A DNA stretch of 64,000 nucleotides from Pseudomonadota bacterium (lineage in GTDB: Bacteria; Pseudomonadota; Gammaproteobacteria; Burkholderiales; Burkholderiaceae_C), in contig JAZKIF010000081.1 of the NCBI GenBank assembly GCA_040385005.1, forward strand, positions 18,518 to 82,517. The letters run 5' to 3'. Numbering within the stretch: the first letter of the stretch is position 1; each line of letters starts with the position of its first letter. Of this stretch, positions 18,504 through 27,212 are shown one piece after another. The position numbers and the translations under genes are program-made. The notes under the pieces were generated by a model. It searched no databases and was not told where the DNA came from. It saw nothing but the letters and a program-made list of their open reading frames with translations.

Positions 18504-18621
18504 AGGAAGGAGCGCCGGAGATGGCCCCAGGCAGTTGGAGGGCCCTGATTTTACCGGGGCCCTTCTTTCCTGGCTGGAGTCGGTTTATAGAAGCGGGCGC
18601 CGGCGGATCGCCCTCGCCCGC

Positions 18622-19788
18622 GTGAGTGAGAATGGCCGCGTGCAATCCGCCACCGCCCTCGCCGAATCGCTGGTCATCGCCGCATTGCGCGGACCCGCGC
18701 CGGCTTGGCCAAAGGAAGCGGAAGAAGCGACAGCGCGTCAAGCCCTCCGCATCGCATCGGACAACGGCGTGGCCTCCTTGTTGCACGACAAGCTCGCGGG
18801 CGGCGACTGGCCGGCCAATACACTCGACGCCCTGCGCAACCAGGCAGTGCACGCGGCGATGTGGGAGCTGAGTCACCAGCATGCGCTCGGCTTGCTCCTG
18901 AAAGCGCTCCACGAAGCCGACGTGACGCCGGTCCTCATCAAGGGCACCTCCCTGGCGTACTCACTCTATGGCAATCCTGCGCTGCGAACGCGCGGCGACA
19001 CCGACTTGCTGATCCCACTCGCCAGCCACGCGCAGGTTCACGACCTGCTGCTTGCGCAAGGCTATGAAACCCAACACGCCGTCGAGGGCGAGTTCATCAG
19101 CTACCAGGCGGCCTATGTCCTGCGCAGCCGGGATGGCGGCGAGCACACGCTGGACGTGCACTGGAAGATCAACAACTCGGAGCTGCTCTCGCACCTCTTC
19201 ACGCACGCCGAGCTTCTGCAAGATGCACAGCCACTGCCGGCCCTGTGCGCGCACGCCGTGGGCGCATCGCCCGTTCATGCGCTTCTCATTGCGTGCATGC
19301 ACCGCTCCACCCACAAGCAGAATCCCTACTACGTCAATGGTGAGCCGCACCATGACGCGGACCGCTTGATCTGGCTCTATGACATCCATCTGCTCGCCGC
19401 GTATCTGACGCGCGACGAGTGGGCGAAATTCGTGCAGCTCGCATTGCAAAAGGGACTGGCCGCCGTTTGCCTCGAAGGCATGCAGCACGCCGCCGCGCGC
19501 TTTCACACCCCCTATCCGCCCGATGTGGAACAAGCCCTGTCGCAAGCCACCAGCGAAGCGCCCTTCCGCTACCTGGCCGCGGGGCACTTCCGGCAACGCT
19601 GGATGGATTTCCTCGCGCTGGGCAGCGCGGGTCGCAGGCTGCGCTTCGCGCGGGAAGTGTTCTTCCCCGCGCCGGGTTACATGCGGGCCAAGTACCAACT
19701 CGCGCGCTGGCGTTGGCTGCCGTGGCTGTACCTGCGCCGCGCGGGCGGGGGCCTGGTCAAGTCGCTCTTGCGCCGCCACGTCGCGTGA
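18622..19788 (+). CDS. Nucleotidyltransferase family protein (NTP_transf_5-like), lasso-cluster associated
   Basis: PVLIKGTSLAYSLYGNPALRTRGDTDLLIP, LDVHW, RLIWLYDIHLL. Start uncertain (GTG 18622 or 18640). Confidence 0.85.
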   Translation: MSENGRVQSATALAESLVIAALRGPAPAWPKEAEEATARQALRIASDNGVASLLHDKLAGGDWPANTLDALRNQAVHAAMWELSHQHALGLLLKALHEADVTPVLIKGTSLAYSLYGNPALRTRGDTDLLIPLASHAQVHDLLLAQGYETQHAVEGEFISYQAAYVLRSRDGGEHTLDVHWKINNSELLSHLFTHAELLQDAQPLPALCAHAVGASPVHALLIACMHRSTHKQNPYYVNGEPHHDADRLIWLYDIHLLAAYLTRDEWAKFVQLALQKGLAAVCLEGMQHAAARFHTPYPPDVEQALSQATSEAPFRYLAAGHFRQRWMDFLALGSAGRRLRFAREVFFPAPGYMRAKYQLARWRWLPWLYLRRAGGGLVKSLLRRHVA

Positions 19789-19806
19789 GCGCGAATCGCA
19801 GGCAAG

Positions 19807-20700
19807 CTACAAGGCGTCCTTCCATTGCGGATGCCGCTGGAACCCTTCTACCAGGCGCGGCAGGTTGCGCATCAATCCGCCCAGGTGCTCGTTGAAGTTC
19901 GCCTGGTTGAAGAAGTTGTGGCTCACCGTGATCGAGTTTTCCAGCCCCAGAACCCAATGCCACCAACCCGAAGGCATGAAGAGCATGTCGCCGGGGCCGA
20001 TCGTGCCGGTATAGGCCGTCGCATTCGCGAACAGCGGGAATTCGCCGGGGTCCGCAAGCGCCGGATCGACGCGCCCGCCATAGAGAAAATCGCAATCGCC
20101 GGGTGGGAACAGCATGACGCGCTTGCGGCCACGAACCTGCGCGAGGTAGGCATGCGTGTTCCAGAAATCGCAATGCAGCGGCGAGAGCGTGCCTTCGGCG
20201 CCAACGTAGAGCGATGTGGTCTCGCGGCCGCTCACCCACTGGAAGATCTCGCGCATTTGCGGGCTGAGGGCCAATTCCCAGTCCGCGACGAAATACGGGG
20301 GCGGCTGTATTTCCTCCAGGAGTTCAGGATGCTTCTGGAACGCGAACCACCCCATGAGGTAGTAGGCCGCGCGATCCTCCTTTGCCGGGCCGTTCGCAAG
20401 CGGCCGGCCATCACCGGCATTGACCCAAAAGCCCGGCAATTCACCATCAGGTTGCTCGAGATGCCCCAGGAACGCCGACAGCTTCGTCATCTTCGCGACC
20501 GGGCTCATCAGGCCCAGCGACACCGGCACCAGGTCACCCCCGAAACGTTCGCCCAGGCTGCTGAACGACCACTCCTGCATCGCCCGCCACTGGTCCATCG
20601 CGTCGGTGACGATCACCGGCTTGCCGATCCCGTCGAGATGATCGCGCGCGAAGTCGGCCGGCGTGATTGCGCACTTGCGTTCGATCTCGATCGTGTTCAT
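19807..20700 (-). CDS. JmjC/cupin-like Fe(II)/2-oxoglutarate oxygenase
   Basis: KPVIVTDAMDQWRA, SPLHCD (HxD), QVRGRKRVMLFPP, PGDMLFMPSGWWHWV (distal His), SITVSHNF. Confidence 0.9.
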   Translation of the reverse strand: MNTIEIERKCAITPADFARDHLDGIGKPVIVTDAMDQWRAMQEWSFSSLGERFGGDLVPVSLGLMSPVAKMTKLSAFLGHLEQPDGELPGFWVNAGDGRPLANGPAKEDRAAYYLMGWFAFQKHPELLEEIQPPPYFVADWELALSPQMREIFQWVSGRETTSLYVGAEGTLSPLHCDFWNTHAYLAQVRGRKRVMLFPPGDCDFLYGGRVDPALADPGEFPLFANATAYTGTIGPGDMLFMPSGWWHWVLGLENSITVSHNFFNQANFNEHLGGLMRNLPRLVEGFQRHPQWKDAL

Positions 20701-21845
20701 GAATCGCGTCCGTACCTGACCGAGAGCGCGGCCACGTGCACCAGCGCGGCGCGGCCGTCGGCGAATCGCGAGGGGAACTGCGATGCGAGAAGGTCCGCGA
20801 TCTCACCGAGCGCGACGCGTTGCGACATCATCTCGAGCACACGCATGTCGATCTTTCCGTCCTCGCCAAGCTGCGGCACGTGCGAGGCAGATTGCCGACC
20901 CAGGCGACCGGGTACGAGCGGCATTCCAAGAAAAGTCGATTGCCGGAAATTGCCCTTCACCGCTCCCGCGCTGTCATGGAACGTGCTGTTCCATGTCCAC
21001 AGGTAGTCGCCCCCCGTGAAGCGCGCCTGCAAGCGCAAACGCACCTGGTCACCCGCCTCGAGCCGCATGGGACGAAGCCACGGGAAGAACGCCCGCCCGT
21101 ACACGAGCTCTCCCGCGCCCGCCGCATTCGAGTAGCGGACGGTATCACTGAGCTGCGCATCGAACCACATGCAAATGCCATGTGTCGTGCCGGCTTGCGC
21201 CGCCACTAGCGTGATCTCCCCTTCGGCATCCGCGTTGTCCACCGAGGCGTAATCGATCTGCGCCCAACAGGCCGGCGTCGACAGCAAATCCTTCGGCACG
21301 ACATCCGCCCGCCACCATTGGTTTGCAACCAGGCTGGACACCGGCCGCATCTCGATGCCATGCACGCCCTCGGCCCAGGGCACATTCACACGCCGATATT
21401 CCCGCTCCGATTGAACCAGCGCCGCCCACAAGGAATCCGAACGCGGCAGCAGCACGCCGCCCGGTGCGAGATGGCGCCTGCGCGCATCGGCGATGGCGTC
21501 GAGGTGCTCGCCGTGAAGCGGCAGTACGCCACGCAGATCGGACACGATGACATCCGCGCGCTCGGGCAGCGTCACGCGCGTCGAGAGCGCCTGGAAAAAT
21601 TCGATCCGCTCCGCGCAGCCATTCGCGACAGCAAGGTCCCGCGCGACCTGGATCGCATCCGACGGTTCCACGGCGAAAACGCGACGCGCGCCCAGCTTGC
21701 ATGCGAGCAGCGCAAAGATGCCGGTGCCGGTGCCGATGTCCAGCACCACCGAATCGGGCTTCACGCAATCGCGCAGCGCCTGTGCATACGCATCCATCCG
21801 GACCTTGTCGGCCATCATCTCGCCGAACTGCGCGATGCTGTACAT
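20697..21845 (-). CDS. PRMT-fold SAM-dependent methyltransferase with C-terminal wHTH/PqqD-like helices
   Basis: EMMADKVRMDAY, VLDIGTGTGIFALLACKLGARRVFAVE, LPERADVIVSDLRG, HLAPGG, HGICMWFDA (PRMT beta-barrel-like); tail LEMMSQRVALGEIADLLASQF. Confidence 0.82.
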   Translation of the reverse strand: MYSIAQFGEMMADKVRMDAYAQALRDCVKPDSVVLDIGTGTGIFALLACKLGARRVFAVEPSDAIQVARDLAVANGCAERIEFFQALSTRVTLPERADVIVSDLRGVLPLHGEHLDAIADARRRHLAPGGVLLPRSDSLWAALVQSEREYRRVNVPWAEGVHGIEMRPVSSLVANQWWRADVVPKDLLSTPACWAQIDYASVDNADAEGEITLVAAQAGTTHGICMWFDAQLSDTVRYSNAAGAGELVYGRAFFPWLRPMRLEAGDQVRLRLQARFTGGDYLWTWNSTFHDSAGAVKGNFRQSTFLGMPLVPGRLGRQSASHVPQLGEDGKIDMRVLEMMSQRVALGEIADLLASQFPSRFADGRAALVHVAALSVRYGRDS

Positions 21846-21854
21846 CCTGGTCGC

Positions 21855-22844
21855 CTATGTGCGCGAAGCCCGCACCATGCGGGCATGGTCCGCGAGGATC
21901 GCTTCGCACAGCTCGGGCAGGCGCCGCAGGTCGGCGGGCGCGCCGACGCGCCGCAGCGGCAGCTTGCGGACCATGTTCGCGGCAAGGTCGAACTCGCTCG
22001 CGCGCGCGTCCCGGTCCTGGTATTTGCTCGCGAAAGAATCCGTGATCAAGGCCATCATCGCCTCGCGCGCCGGCATGTCTTCGATCGCGACTTTGTCTGA
22101 TGCTTCGCGTCGCGGACCGAGGAAATAGATCGCGGAGAGCGGCGCGCGCGGCGGCGCCGCCTTGCCCCCGAGCAACGCCAGATCCGCCATGCGCTTGTCC
22201 CATTCCGGCGCCGCGCGCGGCAGCGCTTCCGCCGCACCGAACAGCGCGCTTGCCGAATCCGGCCACAACCGAAGCCGGGGACGCGATGCGACCATCTCGA
22301 ATGCGCCCTGCCTCGGCACGACCGGCACGAGGTCATCGGACATCACCGCATGACCGAGCCGGGAGAAGGCGGCGGCGGTCGTCGATTTGCCGGCCCCCGA
22401 AGCACCGACGAGCGCGATCGCGCCATCGCCGAGGGCAATCGCGCTCGCATGCAGGCACACGATGCCGCGCAGCCGAAGGACGACGCCCATCACCGGGCCG
22501 AGCAGGTAGCCCGCGACGTGTTCGGCCGTCAGGTCGGCGGGCCAATCCGCCCAGATGCGTCGCCCGCGCGCTTCGATCACGACCACGGCGCCGTCGTCGT
22601 AGTCGAGGCGCAGGTCATCGCTCTGCGGCAAGCGGGTCACGAATAACTCGAGGTGGCCGTCGGTAACCAGGGAGCTCACGTAGGGTTGGCGCGCCTGGGC
22701 TTCCGAGCGTGTGCCGCAGCCCGGCGGGAGTTCGCCCAGGAGGATGTCGACGTCGATGTAATTAGCGCTGGGCAGGCCGGCGAGACCAGCGAGCGGTCGA
22801 TTGGCGCGCACGCCCAATCCGTACAGGCAGGCAGTGGCTGGCAT
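21855..22844 (-). CDS. HPr kinase-like (lasso peptide kinase, PadeK-type)
   Basis: LHASAI, Walker A GASGAGKSTT, MSDDL, PRLRLWPDS; immediately downstream of the precursor. Confidence 0.87.
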   Translation of the reverse strand: MPATACLYGLGVRANRPLAGLAGLPSANYIDVDILLGELPPGCGTRSEAQARQPYVSSLVTDGHLELFVTRLPQSDDLRLDYDDGAVVVIEARGRRIWADWPADLTAEHVAGYLLGPVMGVVLRLRGIVCLHASAIALGDGAIALVGASGAGKSTTAAAFSRLGHAVMSDDLVPVVPRQGAFEMVASRPRLRLWPDSASALFGAAEALPRAAPEWDKRMADLALLGGKAAPPRAPLSAIYFLGPRREASDKVAIEDMPAREAMMALITDSFASKYQDRDARASEFDLAANMVRKLPLRRVGAPADLRRLPELCEAILADHARMVRASRT

Positions 22845-22877
22845 GAAATGATCGGGCGCTTCACCCGCAATTCAGAA

Positions 22878-23042
22878 TCAGGCCGTGGTGCCCGACATGT
22901 TGAAGCCGCCCATGCCATCGGCGTTGCCGGCGCCGGAAGACTGCGTCAACGTCCGAATGTTGCCGTACACCTGGAGTTGGGGAGCGTGGTAAGGCTTCTT
23001 CGCCGCGGGAGCGGCCGACTGTCTTTCGACTCGGGGTTCCAT
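22878..23042 (-). CDS. Lasso peptide precursor (A), 54 aa
   Basis: MEPRVERQSAAPAAKKPYHAPQLQVYGNIRTLTQ|SSGAGNADGMGGFNMSGTTA: exact YxxPxLxxxGxxxxxT leader motif, Thr at -2, Asp at core position 8; AAAGGA RBS. Alternative ATG at 23066 overlaps the cyclase stop. Confidence 0.92.
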   Translation of the reverse strand: MEPRVERQSAAPAAKKPYHAPQLQVYGNIRTLTQSSGAGNADGMGGFNMSGTTA

Positions 23043-23062
23043 GGTGCGTCCTTTCACGTTCG

Positions 23063-24898
23063 TCATTGGCCGATTCCCGCGCTTTGCAGCCAGTAGTGCA
23101 GGCTCATCACGCGCAGATCCCGCCAGGCAACATGGGGGTCGGCATCGGCGGAGTTTAGCTGAAGCCTCCCGGCATCGACGAATCTTCGCAGTGCGGGGGA
23201 CGCAGCGATAGACCCCGGCAATCGCGCCCGGTCGCGCTGCAGCATCACGGCCCACCACGGACCCAGCGGCGTCTTGGGCCGCTTCAGGACGGCTTCGGGC
23301 AACCTCCCCGCCATGGCCGTGCGCAGGATGTGCTTCTTCACGCACCACGGATAGGGCGGCAGCGCGAGGCAATACTCGACCAGGCGCACGTCCATGAGCG
23401 GGTGCCGGTACTCCATGGGCTGCAGCGTGATGCCTGCGTCATACCAATCGAAATGGTTGGACGCGCGGACGAGGTAGTCGTAGATGGCGAACGCGTTGGG
23501 CCGCAAGGGATGGTCCATCCTCGCGCGGGCCCGGTGGTTGTCCCAGCGCTCGCGCAACTTCCAGCGGCTCTCCAGCGCGGGCGAGATCCACGAGGGATAG
23601 GGCAACTCCTGCGGGCCGCCGGGCGCGCCGGGGCGGCGTCTCACCCAGTCGCGCCACGCGAGCGGCACGATCCGCCTCTGCATCGCCGCGTAGCCCAGCA
23701 TGTCCCTGGCCGCCCGGCCCCACGCGCCGCGGCGCATCAAATCGCGGAAATAAGGCTTGGGCGTTTCATTGAGCATCGCATCGCCTTCCCATCCCGTGAG
23801 GAAGACGCGGCTCTCGGCCGCGGCGTCGCGGCAGATATCGCGGCGTTGCACGTGCACCGGGTCGTGGAAGGGTTCGGACTGGCGGACATACGGTGTGTCG
23901 AAGCGGTCGAACAGCTGGAAGTCGTCCGAGGGCAGGAGGCGCAGCGCAAAGCCCGCGCTTTGCGCGACCATGGACGCGTAGCGCCCTTCCTCGTCGGGAA
24001 TCAGGTGCTCGAAGATGCCGGTGTACGCACTCAACTGGAACGGCCCGCCCTGCCTTCGCAGCAGCGCCTGCGCCGTGACGGCGACCGATGTGGAGTCCAT
24101 GCCGCCCGTCATCTCGATGCCGACGCGGTTCGTGCGCAGGCGGTCGGACACGGCGGTGTCCAACAGCTCGCGGAATCGCTCCACGTAGTCCCCTGCGGCG
24201 CGATAGGTGACCTGGATATCGCGCGGGAGCGTCCAGTACGCGCGCACGTTGAGTCCCTCTGCCGACCACGTCATGCAGTGGCCCGGCGCCAGCCGCATGA
24301 TGTCCGCGAAGACTGTCGTGTCCGGCTCGAGGTTTTCGCCGAACAGGAGGAAGTCGGCGATCGCGAGCTCGTTCAGGTCCGCAGCCACGCTCGGATGCAG
24401 GCGCACGCAGTCCAGCGTGTTGCTGAACACCAGGCAGCCGCCAGCGCGCGCATGGAAGAACGGCTTGATGCCGAAGTGGTCACGCGCGCAGAAGAGGCGG
24501 CGGCTGCGCGCATCCCAGATCCCGAAAGCGAAGTCCCCGAGAAGGTGGTGCACGCACGCTTCGCCCCACGCGTGGTAGGCATGCAAGATGAGCTCGACGT
24601 CCGGCGCGTCGCTGTTCGCATCGCGCCCCTCGCCGCGCAGCGCGGCGATCAGTTCGCCGCGCGCATCGATGCGCGCATCGGCGGTGATCCACACCTGCCC
24701 GTCGAAACTCAGGGGCTGCCGCTCGCCCCCGGATTCGAAGGTCGTGCGCAGCAGGGTGTGGCCCAACCCCACGCCGCCTCCAACCCACGTCTCCTGCGCA
24801 TCGGGTCCGCGGAACGTCATGGACTGCGTCATACGCTCCAGCGCGCCCGCATCGACACTCGCGCCGTCGACGTGCGCGATGCCGCAGATGCCACTCAC
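23063..24898 (-). CDS. Lasso peptide cyclase (C; asparagine synthetase-like)
   Basis: GTG start overlapping the B2 stop gives MSGICG, lacking the Cys-2 nucleophile of true AsnB; ARDHFGIKPF, TGGMDS PP-loop, TGWEGD, HPLMDVRLVE, RPKT. Confidence 0.9.
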   Translation of the reverse strand: MSGICGIAHVDGASVDAGALERMTQSMTFRGPDAQETWVGGGVGLGHTLLRTTFESGGERQPLSFDGQVWITADARIDARGELIAALRGEGRDANSDAPDVELILHAYHAWGEACVHHLLGDFAFGIWDARSRRLFCARDHFGIKPFFHARAGGCLVFSNTLDCVRLHPSVAADLNELAIADFLLFGENLEPDTTVFADIMRLAPGHCMTWSAEGLNVRAYWTLPRDIQVTYRAAGDYVERFRELLDTAVSDRLRTNRVGIEMTGGMDSTSVAVTAQALLRRQGGPFQLSAYTGIFEHLIPDEEGRYASMVAQSAGFALRLLPSDDFQLFDRFDTPYVRQSEPFHDPVHVQRRDICRDAAAESRVFLTGWEGDAMLNETPKPYFRDLMRRGAWGRAARDMLGYAAMQRRIVPLAWRDWVRRRPGAPGGPQELPYPSWISPALESRWKLRERWDNHRARARMDHPLRPNAFAIYDYLVRASNHFDWYDAGITLQPMEYRHPLMDVRLVEYCLALPPYPWCVKKHILRTAMAGRLPEAVLKRPKTPLGPWWAVMLQRDRARLPGSIAASPALRRFVDAGRLQLNSADADPHVAWRDLRVMSLHYWLQSAGIGQ

Positions 24899-25356
24899 CG
24901 CGCCACCGGCGATTCCGAAGTCAGTGCCTCGTCGAAGGAGTGGAAGCGTCCGCGCACGTCCGGTCCATCGATCAAGGGCTGGCCCCGGTATTCGAGCCAT
25001 GCATGCGCGTCAAGTTCGCCGCGGGCAGGAGCAACGCCGATCCGCAGATCGGTTGCGACGCCGCGCTGACCCAGCAGGCGCTTGAGCGCGAGCGCCATCG
25101 GCAGGCAGGAGGCGCAATACGGGCCGTGCCTCGCGGCCGCGGCCACGAGGCGGGCGGTGACGCTCACGACTGCGCGCGCATCGGCCGGGGGCCGCCCACG
25201 GGAGGCCTTGCTTTCAGCGAACGCGAGCATGCGCCGAACGCCCAGCACCCTCAGGCCGAGCGCCATCAAGGGAAGCATCACGAGGGCTTGGAGCAGCAGC
25301 AGGCGATGCGCGGCAGGCAGCGCACGCCACGCGGCCCATTTACTCGTCGGAGACAC
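24895..25356 (-). CDS. Lasso peptide leader peptidase (B2; transglutaminase-like)
   Basis: SCLPMALAL...LRIGVA...AHAWLE Cys-His motif; GTG start at 25356 overlapping the B1 end. Confidence 0.9.
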   Translation of the reverse strand: MSPTSKWAAWRALPAAHRLLLLQALVMLPLMALGLRVLGVRRMLAFAESKASRGRPPADARAVVSVTARLVAAAARHGPYCASCLPMALALKRLLGQRGVATDLRIGVAPARGELDAHAWLEYRGQPLIDGPDVRGRFHSFDEALTSESPVAR

Positions 25357-25621
25357 GGAGCAATCCAGCCTCGACCAGCTTCTGCGTGAAAGCGCGAAGA
25401 TCGGCTTCCAGGCGTTCGCGGTCCACCTCATATTCGGCGGCGAGCAACTCGCACGCGGACTCGACGCTGGGCGTGGTGGTGAGCGCCACCCACATGCGGC
25501 TGCCGACGTCGTCGAGGCCGAAGTAGGTTTCGGTCGCGAGGTCGAGCAATACCGACTCGCCCTGCATCTCACGCACCAGGACGCCGTCGGGAATGGAAAT
25601 GCGCGATTGCGCTGATGGCAT
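25340..25621 (-). CDS. PqqD-family RiPP recognition element (lasso B1/E)
   Basis: VLVREMQGESVLLDLATETYFGLDDVGSRMW...LAAEYEVDRERLEADLRAFTQKLVEAGLL; 93 aa. Confidence 0.93.
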   Translation of the reverse strand: MPSAQSRISIPDGVLVREMQGESVLLDLATETYFGLDDVGSRMWVALTTTPSVESACELLAAEYEVDRERLEADLRAFTQKLVEAGLLRVSDE

Positions 25622-25634
25622 GATTCAGAACTCG

Positions 25635-27212
25635 ATGGACCTCGACAAATCTATCACGAGATTGCCCGCCGACACCCTCGGGGCGGACCTCATCTGGTGG
25701 CGCTCATCGCACGGCTGGTCGACGAACGTGACATTGTTCTGGAGCCGTTTCCAGCAATTCGCGGACACGATCCACCTGCAGGCGCTGCTGTTCGACCGTG
25801 CGGGCCAATGCGTCGCGACATGGCGGATCGGGTTGCCCGCCGCGCATCCCATCCTCATCGACAGCACGGCGCCCGGACCTTGGCAAGGGCACGGCGACGG
25901 TATGCTGGCCCTCTATGCGTGTACCGACGGGCCGCCCAGTGAAGCGGCCCGCAAGAAATTCCATCGCCTGTATCCCCTGGTCGGCTGGCATGGCCCGCTT
26001 GGGGAGATCGCATCGCTCCATTCAGACCAGGTGATCAGGCGGGGCCGCGACAAGGTGCAAGCCATTACCGAAATCGTTGCCATCGAGAACGACACCGAAC
26101 GCAACGCGCTCGTGATCCTCAACGGCGAGGAGCACCAGGAGCCCGGCGCGCTGGCGCTGACTTTCACCAACGCCGACGGCGAACGCATGGACGGTAGCTA
26201 CATGGAGGCCATGTCGCCGTTCGAGGTTCACCGCATCGCCCTGCGGGAGATCGCGCCCGGGCTGGGCGAGTTCGCGCGCGGCCAGCCCTTCACTGTCAGC
26301 GGGCGCTTCGAGTCGCACGGCCTTTTCACGCGCCCGTATGTCGAAACGACCGGCGCGCGATACGGCATCTACCACGCCGGGGATGTGTACGCCTGGGCGC
26401 CGCTGCCGCACTTCGTCCATGCGCTGGTCGATGGCGAAGTCAACCCGATGGCCGTGGTGCATGACGGCAGCACGCGCACCATCGTCAACCTGCTGCACTC
26501 GCATGGCGACCTCGAGGACGATGTCGCCGTCGATGCCCGCCTGTACGACCTGCAAGGCCGATGCATCGCCCAGCGGCCTTCCTGGCAACTGGCTCGACGG
26601 CACGGCTTGTCCCGCGCGGACGTCGCGGACTTGCTGCCCGACCCGAGTCAGCCGTTTCGCGGGCATATCGCACTGTCGTTCCGCCCGCTGCCCGGGCAGC
26701 CTGTGCCGCGCAGGCTGCAGGCGCTGCTCGAATACCGGGCCGATGCGAGCATCGCCCACGTCATGGCCTGGAGCGACGAATGGAATTCGGCCGTTCGCCT
26801 GGCGCGCCGCGACCGCCGCGACCACCCGGCGCTGCTCCAGTCGTATTTCCGCGTCGTGGAGCGCACCGATTGCGCGACCGGGATTTCCATCACGAACGCC
26901 GGTCACCCCGGCTATGCGCGCTCCGCGCAGATCGCGCTGGAACTGCACGGCCCCCAGGGCCTCATCGCGAAGACAAGTTTCGAGCTTGCGCCCTATGCGA
27001 CGCGCATGGCCCCCGTGCTGGAGATCTTTCCGAATGCGCGCGAGCAACTCTCCCCCGGGGGCATCGGATTGCTGATCGCGTCCAGCGAGAGCGATCTCGC
27101 GAACGTGGCGTTCACACGCTCCAGCGCATCGGGCGCGCTGGCCGCCGAGCACTTTCTGCCTCTGCAGGCATTGGGCGAGGACGGGCGTTGGCTCGTTGCG
27201 GCAGGCCGCTGA
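25635..27212 (+). CDS. Hypothetical protein with about four internal beta-rich repeats
   Basis: Long ORF with normal codon bias and no recognised family; repeated 'h-x-h-(F/Y)-(D/N)-x-x-G' and 'h-x-(E/D)-h-x-P' units; start uncertain. Confidence 0.75.
   Translation: MDLDKSITRLPADTLGADLIWWRSSHGWSTNVTLFWSRFQQFADTIHLQALLFDRAGQCVATWRIGLPAAHPILIDSTAPGPWQGHGDGMLALYACTDGPPSEAARKKFHRLYPLVGWHGPLGEIASLHSDQVIRRGRDKVQAITEIVAIENDTERNALVILNGEEHQEPGALALTFTNADGERMDGSYMEAMSPFEVHRIALREIAPGLGEFARGQPFTVSGRFESHGLFTRPYVETTGARYGIYHAGDVYAWAPLPHFVHALVDGEVNPMAVVHDGSTRTIVNLLHSHGDLEDDVAVDARLYDLQGRCIAQRPSWQLARRHGLSRADVADLLPDPSQPFRGHIALSFRPLPGQPVPRRLQALLEYRADASIAHVMAWSDEWNSAVRLARRDRRDHPALLQSYFRVVERTDCATGISITNAGHPGYARSAQIALELHGPQGLIAKTSFELAPYATRMAPVLEIFPNAREQLSPGGIGLLIASSESDLANVAFTRSSASGALAAEHFLPLQALGEDGRWLVAAGR

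What the first reader, a model, noticed from the sequence alone, without database searches (positions are those of the whole stretch)
18622..25621. Lasso-peptide gene cluster with four candidate tailoring enzymes (kinase, PRMT-fold methyltransferase, JmjC oxygenase, nucleotidyltransferase)
Seen: a tightly coupled minus-strand operon RRE(B1)-peptidase(B2)-cyclase(C)-precursor(A)-HPr-type kinase-methyltransferase-JmjC, with overlapping or closely spaced genes, plus a convergent nucleotidyltransferase ending 18 bp from the JmjC stop. Established: B1/B2/C/A make lasso peptides; kinases (paeninodin PadeK) and kinase plus nucleotidyltransferase (pseudomycoidin) are known tailoring enzymes. Inference: I know of no characterised lasso pathway with a PRMT-fold methyltransferase plus a JmjC oxygenase, so this may yield a new multiply modified lasso class.
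Basis: partly seen in the sequence, partly recalled or inferred. Interest (0 to 1): 0.93.

Follow-up and report, generated by a model that had tools for sequence, protein, structure and literature searches.

The report
Knotted-peptide cluster with rewired methyltransferase
This is an intact bacterial gene cluster for a small knotted ("lasso") peptide with four extra enzyme genes; one is shaped like animal arginine methyltransferases but has lost their arginine-binding residues and likely methylates methionine sulfur instead, and a rarer oxygenase possibly hydroxylates the same peptide.

Summary
All eight genes are intact at the stated places, and the predicted cyclised 20-residue core is 1770.69 Da. 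The RRE-peptidase-cyclase-precursor-kinase-methyltransferase-nucleotidyltransferase set is not unique. It is a widespread family that I found in no paper, and this scan has reported it before on other DNA.

The methyltransferase has the PRMT fold (Z 33.5) but lacks the second Glu and the THW loop, and this core holds no Arg or Lys. Cores beside this enzyme clade carry Met in 25 of 31 cases, against 1 of 19 in kinase clusters without it. Met10 and Met15 are kept in close relatives. Best reading: Met S-methylation (about 50%), with Ser/Thr phosphorylation and PsmN-like capping.

The JmjC gene is the rare part. It has an intact iron triad, is translationally coupled, and is kept in place in a same-genus genome and in an 89%-identical contig, but it lies beside only 1 of 29 other methyltransferases. 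It sits where many relatives have an ABC exporter, which I did not find in this genome. Its role in the peptide is likely but untested (about 60%). Verdict: a new variant of kinase-type class II lasso clusters, not a new class.

The parts
25340..25621 (-). B1: discrete RiPP recognition element (RRE), 93 aa
   Evidence: PqqD E 1.9e-18; lasso_PqqD models
24895..25356 (-). B2: leader peptidase, GTG start overlapping the end of B1; Cys and AHAW motif present
   Evidence: Transglut_core3 E 4e-20; NF033537 77 bits, cut-off 33; motifs; same start in G305
23063..24898 (-). C: lasso cyclase, 611 aa; begins MSGICG, so no Cys at position 1 after Met removal
   Evidence: NF033535 best hit, 378 bits, below cut-off; the window's polysaccharide-locus amidotransferases begin MCG or MCA
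22878..23066 (-). A: precursor (62 aa; probable start 23042, 54 aa) with YxxPxL leader and Thr at -2
   Evidence: the only match to the lasso-precursor pattern in the genome
22881..22940 (-). Predicted core SSGAGNADGMGGFNMSGTTA; Ser1-Asp8 ring; no Cys, Arg or Lys; Met10 and Met15
   Evidence: mass; conservation
21855..22844 (-). K: HprK-type peptide kinase, 329 aa, with His132, Lys153, Asp170, Asp171
   Evidence: His-Lys-Asp-Asp motif per PMC9266682
20697..21845 (-). MT: PRMT-fold SAM methyltransferase, 382 aa; SDLRG in place of the double-Glu loop, Tyr-Gly in place of THW; C-terminal three-helix domain weakly like the helical half of an RRE
19807..20700 (-). JmjC 2OG/Fe(II) oxygenase, 297 aa; His176-Asp178-His248 and Lys193 invariant; start overlaps the MT stop (ATGA)
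18535..19788 (+). NT: PsmN-family nucleotidyltransferase (start TTG 18535 or GTG 18622/18640), DxD motif, convergent with JmjC
   Evidence: NTP_transf_5 E 7e-34; same place in G305
25593..27212 (+). Unknown protein of about 530 aa, divergent from B1; travels with the cassette in G305 (63%); membership uncertain
   Evidence: no Pfam or NCBIfam hit; DUF5719-like structural neighbours

Best explanation
The cluster encodes a full lasso-peptide machinery and four extra enzymes and is predicted to make a 20-residue Ser1-Asp8 lasso peptide that is likely phosphorylated on a Ser/Thr, likely S-methylated on a methionine by the PRMT-fold enzyme, possibly capped on the phosphate by the nucleotidyltransferase, and possibly hydroxylated by the JmjC enzyme. 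Shown: the genes, motifs, folds, gene order and conservation. From known pathways: B1 binds the YxxPxL leader, B2 cuts after Thr-Gln, and C closes Ser1 on Asp8 (about 95%). Inferred: K phosphorylates the linear precursor, most likely at Thr18, since there is no C-terminal Ser (about 85% for some Ser/Thr, 50% for Thr18). MT transfers a methyl from SAM to Met10 or Met15, giving a fixed sulfonium cation (85% that it acts on the peptide, 50% on Met); in Met-less relatives the same site would take Lys. NT adds an NMP or hexose to the phosphate as PsmN does (60%). JmjC hydroxylates the peptide (60%), with conserved Asn6 the best guess (30%).
For: MT fold: Z 33.5 to PRMT2 against 14.5 for the first non-PRMT. 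Active site changed: SEWMG..E and THW of PRMT2 align to SDLRG..G and VYG; D103, P109 and Y249 are invariant in 34 rows. All 14 stand-alone bacterial PRMT-like genes without lasso neighbours keep Glu at the first loop position and lack the C-terminal domain. Linkage: a lasso gene in 32 of 32 and a kinase in 30 of 32 loci with at least 3 kb upstream; NT in 20 of 24 with at least 3 kb downstream. Met in core: 25 of 31 against 1 of 19; Acidobacteriota only, 10 of 11 against 1 of 19; at GC of 60% or more, 14 of 16 against 1 of 14; Ile, Phe and Tyr are not enriched. Five MT-less clusters placed among or beside MT-bearing ones on the kinase tree (L205, L206, L208, L209, L213) are all Met-less. All 31 cores hold Met or Lys. 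A lasso-linked MT clade that keeps the double Glu has Arg-rich cores (L139, L140, L144). S1, G5, N6, A7, D8, G9, M10, G12, M15 and T18 are shared by this core, the G305 core and P0280. Precedent: Met sulfonium in longipeptin A (PMC10664482); ring-Ser phosphorylation by BsfK; hexose on phosphate needing PsmN. JmjC: metal triad invariant in 49 rows; same position in G305 and in a 6.7-kb, about 89%-identical contig of run X4; another 2OG oxygenase (PhyH) sits between K and MT in L132.
Against: No activity or product has been shown. 6 of 31 main-clade cores have no Met, and Lys is enriched too (8.4% against 3.0%). Other MT clades also have Met in 7 of 11 cores. The controls come from one phylum, a precursor was found in only 20 of the 60 kinase regions fetched, kin are not independent, and the tree is the quick one with 28 of 47 forks open. 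The proposed longipeptin enzyme LopH resembles a different protein (the MTHFR domain) and is itself unproven. The JmjC gene lies beside only 1 of 29 other MTs. The best JmjC match outside the genus (L171, E 6e-55) lies among polysaccharide genes with no lasso gene, and this cassette borders a large polysaccharide locus. No orthologue of the family's exporter was found in this 86.6%-complete genome. The RRE likeness of the C-terminal domain is weak (hhalign 5.5%; Foldseek E 0.73), and a lasso-linked subgroup lacks it.
Confidence: 0.5

Rival explanations
1. Same lasso peptide, but MT methylates an oxygen anion: the phosphate that K places on Ser/Thr, or the C-terminal carboxylate. The Met enrichment would then reflect the peptide's function, not the enzyme's substrate.
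For: A kinase is present in 30 of 32 loci, usually directly upstream. Arg105 lies in the rewired loop (at least 90% of 34 rows). Ser/Thr is present in 31 of 31 cores, and a [KRM]x?[TS] tail in 26 of 31 against 2 of 20. C-terminal esters are known (StspM).
Against: Arg105 is replaced by His, Gly, Asn or Val in 20 of 75 MT ORFs. This reading does not explain the loss of Met in MT-less clusters. Ser/Thr is also present in 20 of 20 controls.
Confidence: 0.2
2. The JmjC gene is a passenger, or belongs to the neighbouring surface-polysaccharide locus; the lasso peptide carries at most three modifications.
For: JmjC beside 1 of 29 other MTs; 2 of 118 genus genomes and only the own genome of 371 order genomes; a distant match in a polysaccharide locus without lasso genes. 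The contexts of nearly all 155 homologues could not be read.
Against: ATGA coupling to MT here and adjacency in G305. It diverges at the same rate as MT (61% and 61%). It is enclosed between MT and NT. Its best solved relatives are protein hydroxylases JMJD5 and FIH.
Confidence: 0.35
3. MT is an N-methyltransferase: an ordinary arginine or lysine methyltransferase acting on the leader or on another protein, or an Asn-amide or backbone methylase.
For: All top structural and sequence hits are PRMTs. Lys is present in 24 of 31 family cores. Asn6 is conserved. Asn N-methylation exists in RiPPs (AerE).
Against: The second Glu and THW are lost. There is no Arg or Lys in this core or in the G305 core. 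Arg is depleted in the family's cores (8 of 31 against 14 of 20). AerE is GenN/PrmC-like, not PRMT-like. Asn is absent from 9 of 31 cores.
Confidence: 0.17
4. The cassette is a decaying or non-exporting remnant, since it lacks the family's ABC exporter.
For: Many relatives have a full-length exporter right after MT (54-59% mutual identity); this genome gives only ATPase-level matches of 30-44%. The JmjC marker is patchy in the genus.
Against: All frames and motifs are intact here and in G305 at 52-69% identity. The X4 contig is collinear. The genome is incomplete, and other exporters may serve.
Confidence: 0.08

Closest known systems
bsf cluster, Bradymonas sediminis FA350 (bsfA, B1, B2, C, D, K, N; PMC10368454, passages and a supplement term search)
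   Same: Gram-negative host, split B1/B2, HprK-like kinase that acts on a non-terminal Ser, nucleotidyltransferase of unknown role.
   Different: It has no methyltransferase or oxygenase, has an ABC exporter, and has Ile at -2; here Thr at -2 and no exporter.
Pseudomycoidin (psm) and paeninodin (pade) clusters (PMC6993621, PMC9266682, PMC8498205, passages)
   Same: Kinase with His-Lys-Asp-Asp motif; in psm an uncharacterised-family nucleotidyltransferase with a DxD motif that is needed for hexose on the phosphate.
   Different: They modify a C-terminal Ser (here the C-terminus is Ala), come from Firmicutes, carry an exporter, and have no MT or JmjC.
Longipeptin A (lop cluster, LopH; PMC10664482, passages)
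   Same: A lasso peptide with a Met sulfonium plus a hydroxylation; Asp8 ring.
   Different: LopH is unproven and resembles the MTHFR methyltransferase domain, not a PRMT; its oxidations are by P450s; it has no kinase.
Eukaryotic protein arginine methyltransferases (PRMT1/2/3/6/8, CARM1)
   Same: Rossmann plus beta-barrel fold over residues 1-308, Z 33; SAM-binding motifs.
   Different: Double-Glu loop and THW loop replaced, N-terminal helix shortened, extra C-terminal three-helix domain.
CanE (canucin) and the JmjC hydroxylases JMJD5 and FIH
   Same: 2OG/Fe(II) chemistry; CanE beta-hydroxylates Asp of a lasso precursor with B1 help; HxD...H triad.
   Different: This enzyme is a separate bacterial Cupin_8/JmjC family of about 155 clusters; its substrate is unknown. 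I did not compare it with CanE by sequence.

Membership tests
Class II lasso peptide cluster | RRE (B1), cysteine peptidase (B2) and Asn-synthetase-like cyclase (C) together | tested here: met
   C scores 378 on NF033535, below its 525 cut-off but as best hit, and lacks the N-terminal Cys of amidotransferases
Class II lasso peptide cluster | Precursor with YxxPxL, Thr(-2), Asp/Glu at core position 7-9, no Cys | tested here: met
Class II lasso peptide cluster | Threaded macrolactam product | not testable with these tools
   needs LC-MS, protease and heat tests or NMR; the tail has few bulky residues (Phe13, Met15)
Kinase-type lasso clusters (PadeK/ThcoK/SyanK/PsmK/BsfK) | HprK-like kinase with His-Lys-Asp-Asp | tested here: met
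   H132, K153, D170, D171; motif
Kinase-type lasso clusters (PadeK/ThcoK/SyanK/PsmK) | C-terminal Ser acceptor | tested here: not met
   core ends Thr-Thr-Ala; BsfK shows that an internal site is possible
Protein arginine methyltransferases | Rossmann plus beta-barrel fold | tested here: met
Protein arginine methyltransferases | Double-Glu loop and THW loop | tested here: not met
   Asp-Leu-Arg-Gly, no second Glu, Tyr-Gly for His-Trp; the role of these loops is recalled knowledge
Protein arginine methyltransferases | Arg in the cognate substrate | tested here: not met
   no Arg in this core or in the G305 core
JmjC 2OG/Fe(II) oxygenases | Cupin fold with HxD/E...H triad and 2OG-binding Lys | tested here: met
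RiPP-tailoring oxygenase | Orthologues consistently inside the peptide cluster | tested here: inconclusive
   yes in G305 and the X4 contig; other close orthologues not locatable
RRE (PqqD-like) domain, for the MT C-terminus | Three strands plus three helices | tested here: not met
   the model shows three helices only; weak likeness to B1/PqqD, so at most a half RRE
PsmN-type nucleotidyltransferase | NTP_transf_5 domain with metal-binding DxD, in a kinase lasso cluster | tested here: met
   PsmN DxD; no direct sequence comparison with PsmN was run

The most novel reading that the evidence does not exclude
A bacterial branch of the arginine-methyltransferase fold has been rewired into a peptide methionine S-methyltransferase that also takes lysine. 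It serves a large unstudied family of phosphorylated lasso peptides, and this lineage adds a JmjC hydroxylase in place of the exporter, giving a lasso with sulfonium, capped phosphate and hydroxyl on one 20-mer.
Probability: 0.27. Interest if true: 0.82.

Novelty: new variant of a known kind. Interest (0 to 1): 0.6.

Why it matters
PRMT-fold enzymes are known as arginine methylases. An S-methylating version would be new chemistry for the fold, and it would give a defined enzyme for Met sulfonium in a ribosomal peptide, which so far rests on one product with a tentative enzyme. This cluster is a clean test case within the family because its core has no Arg or Lys, so one co-expression experiment separates the rival substrates. 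The closest named homologues come from a described species. It could also settle what PsmN-type enzymes do and whether a JmjC enzyme tailors a lasso peptide.

Tried and rejected
I recalled that AerE/PoyE are PRMT-fold Asn methylases; this was wrong, as AerE is GenN/PrmC-like. I recalled a Paenibacillus lasso pathway with a JmjC enzyme and a methyltransferase; it was not found in the library. It remains an unverified recollection and, if real, would lower the novelty of the pairing. Arg105 as an obligatory anion clamp is weakened by 20 of 75 substitutions. JmjC contexts: viral contigs gave 2 distant loci, plasmids 14 distant records at 23-39% identity, and genome samples almost nothing. Equal contig lengths between the MT and JmjC hit lists are about what chance gives, so I did not use them. 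No RNA holder was listed, so expression is untested. No promoter- or terminator-like sites were found. The NT has no solved relative by sequence. The complex-prediction tool and the profile search of protein representatives were not available, so binding of JmjC to the precursor and the wider range of the JmjC family are untested. Two reviews (PMC11537843, PMC5391289) were not held; most subscription papers and all supplementary figures could not be seen.
Full report
Observation. The junctions show translational coupling, the JmjC and NT stops are 18 bp apart, and the cyclised core is 1770.694 Da. The cassette lies between mnmG, rsmG and parAB (labels from the translations, recalled, except ParB) and a polysaccharide locus of more than 35 kb. 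It is the only lasso-type precursor match in the genome.

The lasso machinery. B1, B2 and C are standard. C scores best on the lasso-cyclase model but below its cut-off, and it lacks the N-terminal Cys that the two polysaccharide amidotransferases of the window keep. The leader has YxxPxL and Thr at -2, which gives the core SSGAGNADGMGGFNMSGTTA with Asp8 as its only acid. Threading is not shown.

The set is a family. The methyltransferase search gave 3640 hits among 7998 candidates scored; the 119 listed non-self hits are 49-86% identical. Loci came from genomes and metagenomes. I called an ORF main-clade if it had the [DE]-x-[RHGNV]-G-x-x-P loop (75 ORFs). Of 32 with at least 3 kb upstream, 32 have a lasso gene and 30 a kinase; 20 of 24 with at least 3 kb downstream have the NT (own genome and duplicate loci left out). 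Earlier notes of this scan describe the same family in other genomes.

The methyltransferase. The model (pLDDT 85.6) matches PRMTs over residues 1-308 at Z up to 33.5, and the first non-PRMT scores 14.5. Yet SEWMG..E of PRMT2 aligns to SDLRG..G and THW to VYG, with D103 and Y249 invariant in 34 rows. Of 29 other PRMT-like ORFs with at least 3 kb on both sides, the 14 without lasso neighbours keep Glu and lack the C-terminal domain, while 12 of the 15 with lasso neighbours have it. That domain folds as three helices. Its top Foldseek hits are a lasso B1 and PqqD, at non-significant E-values; 13 of 52 members hit PqqD weakly; and hhalign gives 5.5%. I read it as a half RRE and a weak lead, and one lasso-linked subgroup lacks it.

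The substrate. Kinase loci from 401 Acidobacteriota genomes (72 with a match) supplied controls: 60 regions were fetched and precursors found in 20 MT-less ones. After merging cores at 60% similarity (45 to 31; 25 to 20), assigning L158 and L204 to the MT group by hand (MT cut by, or beyond, a contig end), and dropping L070 and L069 (truncated MT), Met occurs in 25 of 31 cores against 1 of 19. The contrast holds within the phylum (10 of 11) and at high GC (14 of 16 against 1 of 14), and Ile, Phe and Tyr run the other way. On a quick kinase tree, five MT-less clusters among or beside MT-bearing ones are Met-less. The six Met-less main-clade cores all have Lys, and the seven Lys-less ones all have Met. 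A clade that keeps the double Glu has Arg-rich cores. This core has neither Arg nor Lys, and M10 and M15 are kept in the G305 core and in P0280. One acid plus aromatic residues suits a cationic product (inference). Against this reading: it is a correlation only, kin are not independent, the controls are from one phylum, Lys is also enriched, and Met is present in 7 of 11 cores of other clades. Longipeptin A shows that a Met sulfonium lasso exists (PMC10664482, passages).

Kinase and NT. The His-Lys-Asp-Asp motif is present. With no terminal Ser, Thr18 is the best site: it is conserved in the three cores, and 27 of 31 family cores have Ser/Thr in the last five residues (against 17 of 20 controls, so this count is weak). 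BsfK acts on a ring Ser (PMC10368454), so Ser1 before cyclisation or Ser16 is not excluded. PsmN is needed for hexose on the phosphate, by an unknown route (PMC6993621).

The JmjC gene. It belongs to a family of 155 proteins (E up to 1e-10 among 1673 candidates) with invariant H176, D178, H248 and K193, nearest to JMJD5 and FIH (FIH as an Asn hydroxylase is recalled). G305, of the same genus, has the whole cassette at the same site, at 52-69% identity against 87-95% for flanking housekeeping genes. A 6.7-kb contig of run X4 covers NT to C collinearly with 760 differing letters. Elsewhere it is rare: 2 of 118 genus genomes, 1 of 371 order genomes (the own one), 2 distant of 401 Acidobacteriota, and 1 of 29 MT loci. 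The best distant match lies among polysaccharide genes. Many relatives have an ABC exporter right after MT, and no orthologue was found in this 86.6%-complete genome. L132 has a PhyH oxygenase in its cassette. I put peptide hydroxylation at 60%.

Literature. Searches found no lasso pathway with a PRMT-fold or JmjC enzyme. I read passages of PMC12710340, PMC13352647, PMC10368454 (plus a supplement term search), PMC9266682, PMC9060474, PMC11285071, PMC10664482, PMC12637814, PMC11912497, PMC6993621 and PMC8498205. Subscription papers and supplementary figures were not seen.

Verdict. This is a real, intact cluster and a new variant of the kinase-type class II lasso clusters. The PRMT-fold family is widespread and, as far as I could find, uncharacterised. 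This member is a good test case because its core excludes Arg and Lys and because it adds a JmjC enzyme. Interest 0.6.

Noticed in passing
window 25593-27212 (+): A protein of about 530 aa with no Pfam hit, divergent from B1. It is 63% identical in G305, like the cassette genes and unlike the flanks. Structural neighbours are unnamed or DUF5719 proteins.
   Followed up: partly
window 27227-62754: A large surface-polysaccharide locus: MraY-like GT4, epimerases, two amidotransferases, an ABC-2 permease, many glycosyltransferases, acyltransferases, an FkbM methyltransferase, a carbamoyltransferase and Wza/Wzc-like genes. Several related lasso clusters also sit in such loci (L025, L131, L132, L133).
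   Followed up: partly
L139, L140, L144: A lasso-linked PRMT-fold clade that keeps the double-Glu loop and a TSW loop, with Arg-rich cores: candidate arginine-methylated lasso peptides.
   Followed up: partly
L138, L145, L147; L096, L097, L148, L150, L151: Two further lasso-linked PRMT-fold clades with other loop motifs; the cores found in L138, L145 and L147 end in Cys-Leu, and those in L097 hold two Cys: possibly Cys S-methylation.
   Followed up: no
L001, L014, L019, L045, L134: A subgroup in which MT stops near residue 320, without the C-terminal domain; the cores found are Met-less and Lys-bearing, and an ABC exporter follows.
   Followed up: partly
L137:8760-11196; L132:6253-8863: MT is split by an insertion element in L137; a PhyH oxygenase and an IS200 transposase lie between K and MT in L132.
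   Followed up: no
L173:1-996 (G000 contig C170): A distant stand-alone PRMT-like gene in the same genome (28% identity) that keeps Glu and has no lasso neighbours in 8 kb.
   Followed up: partly
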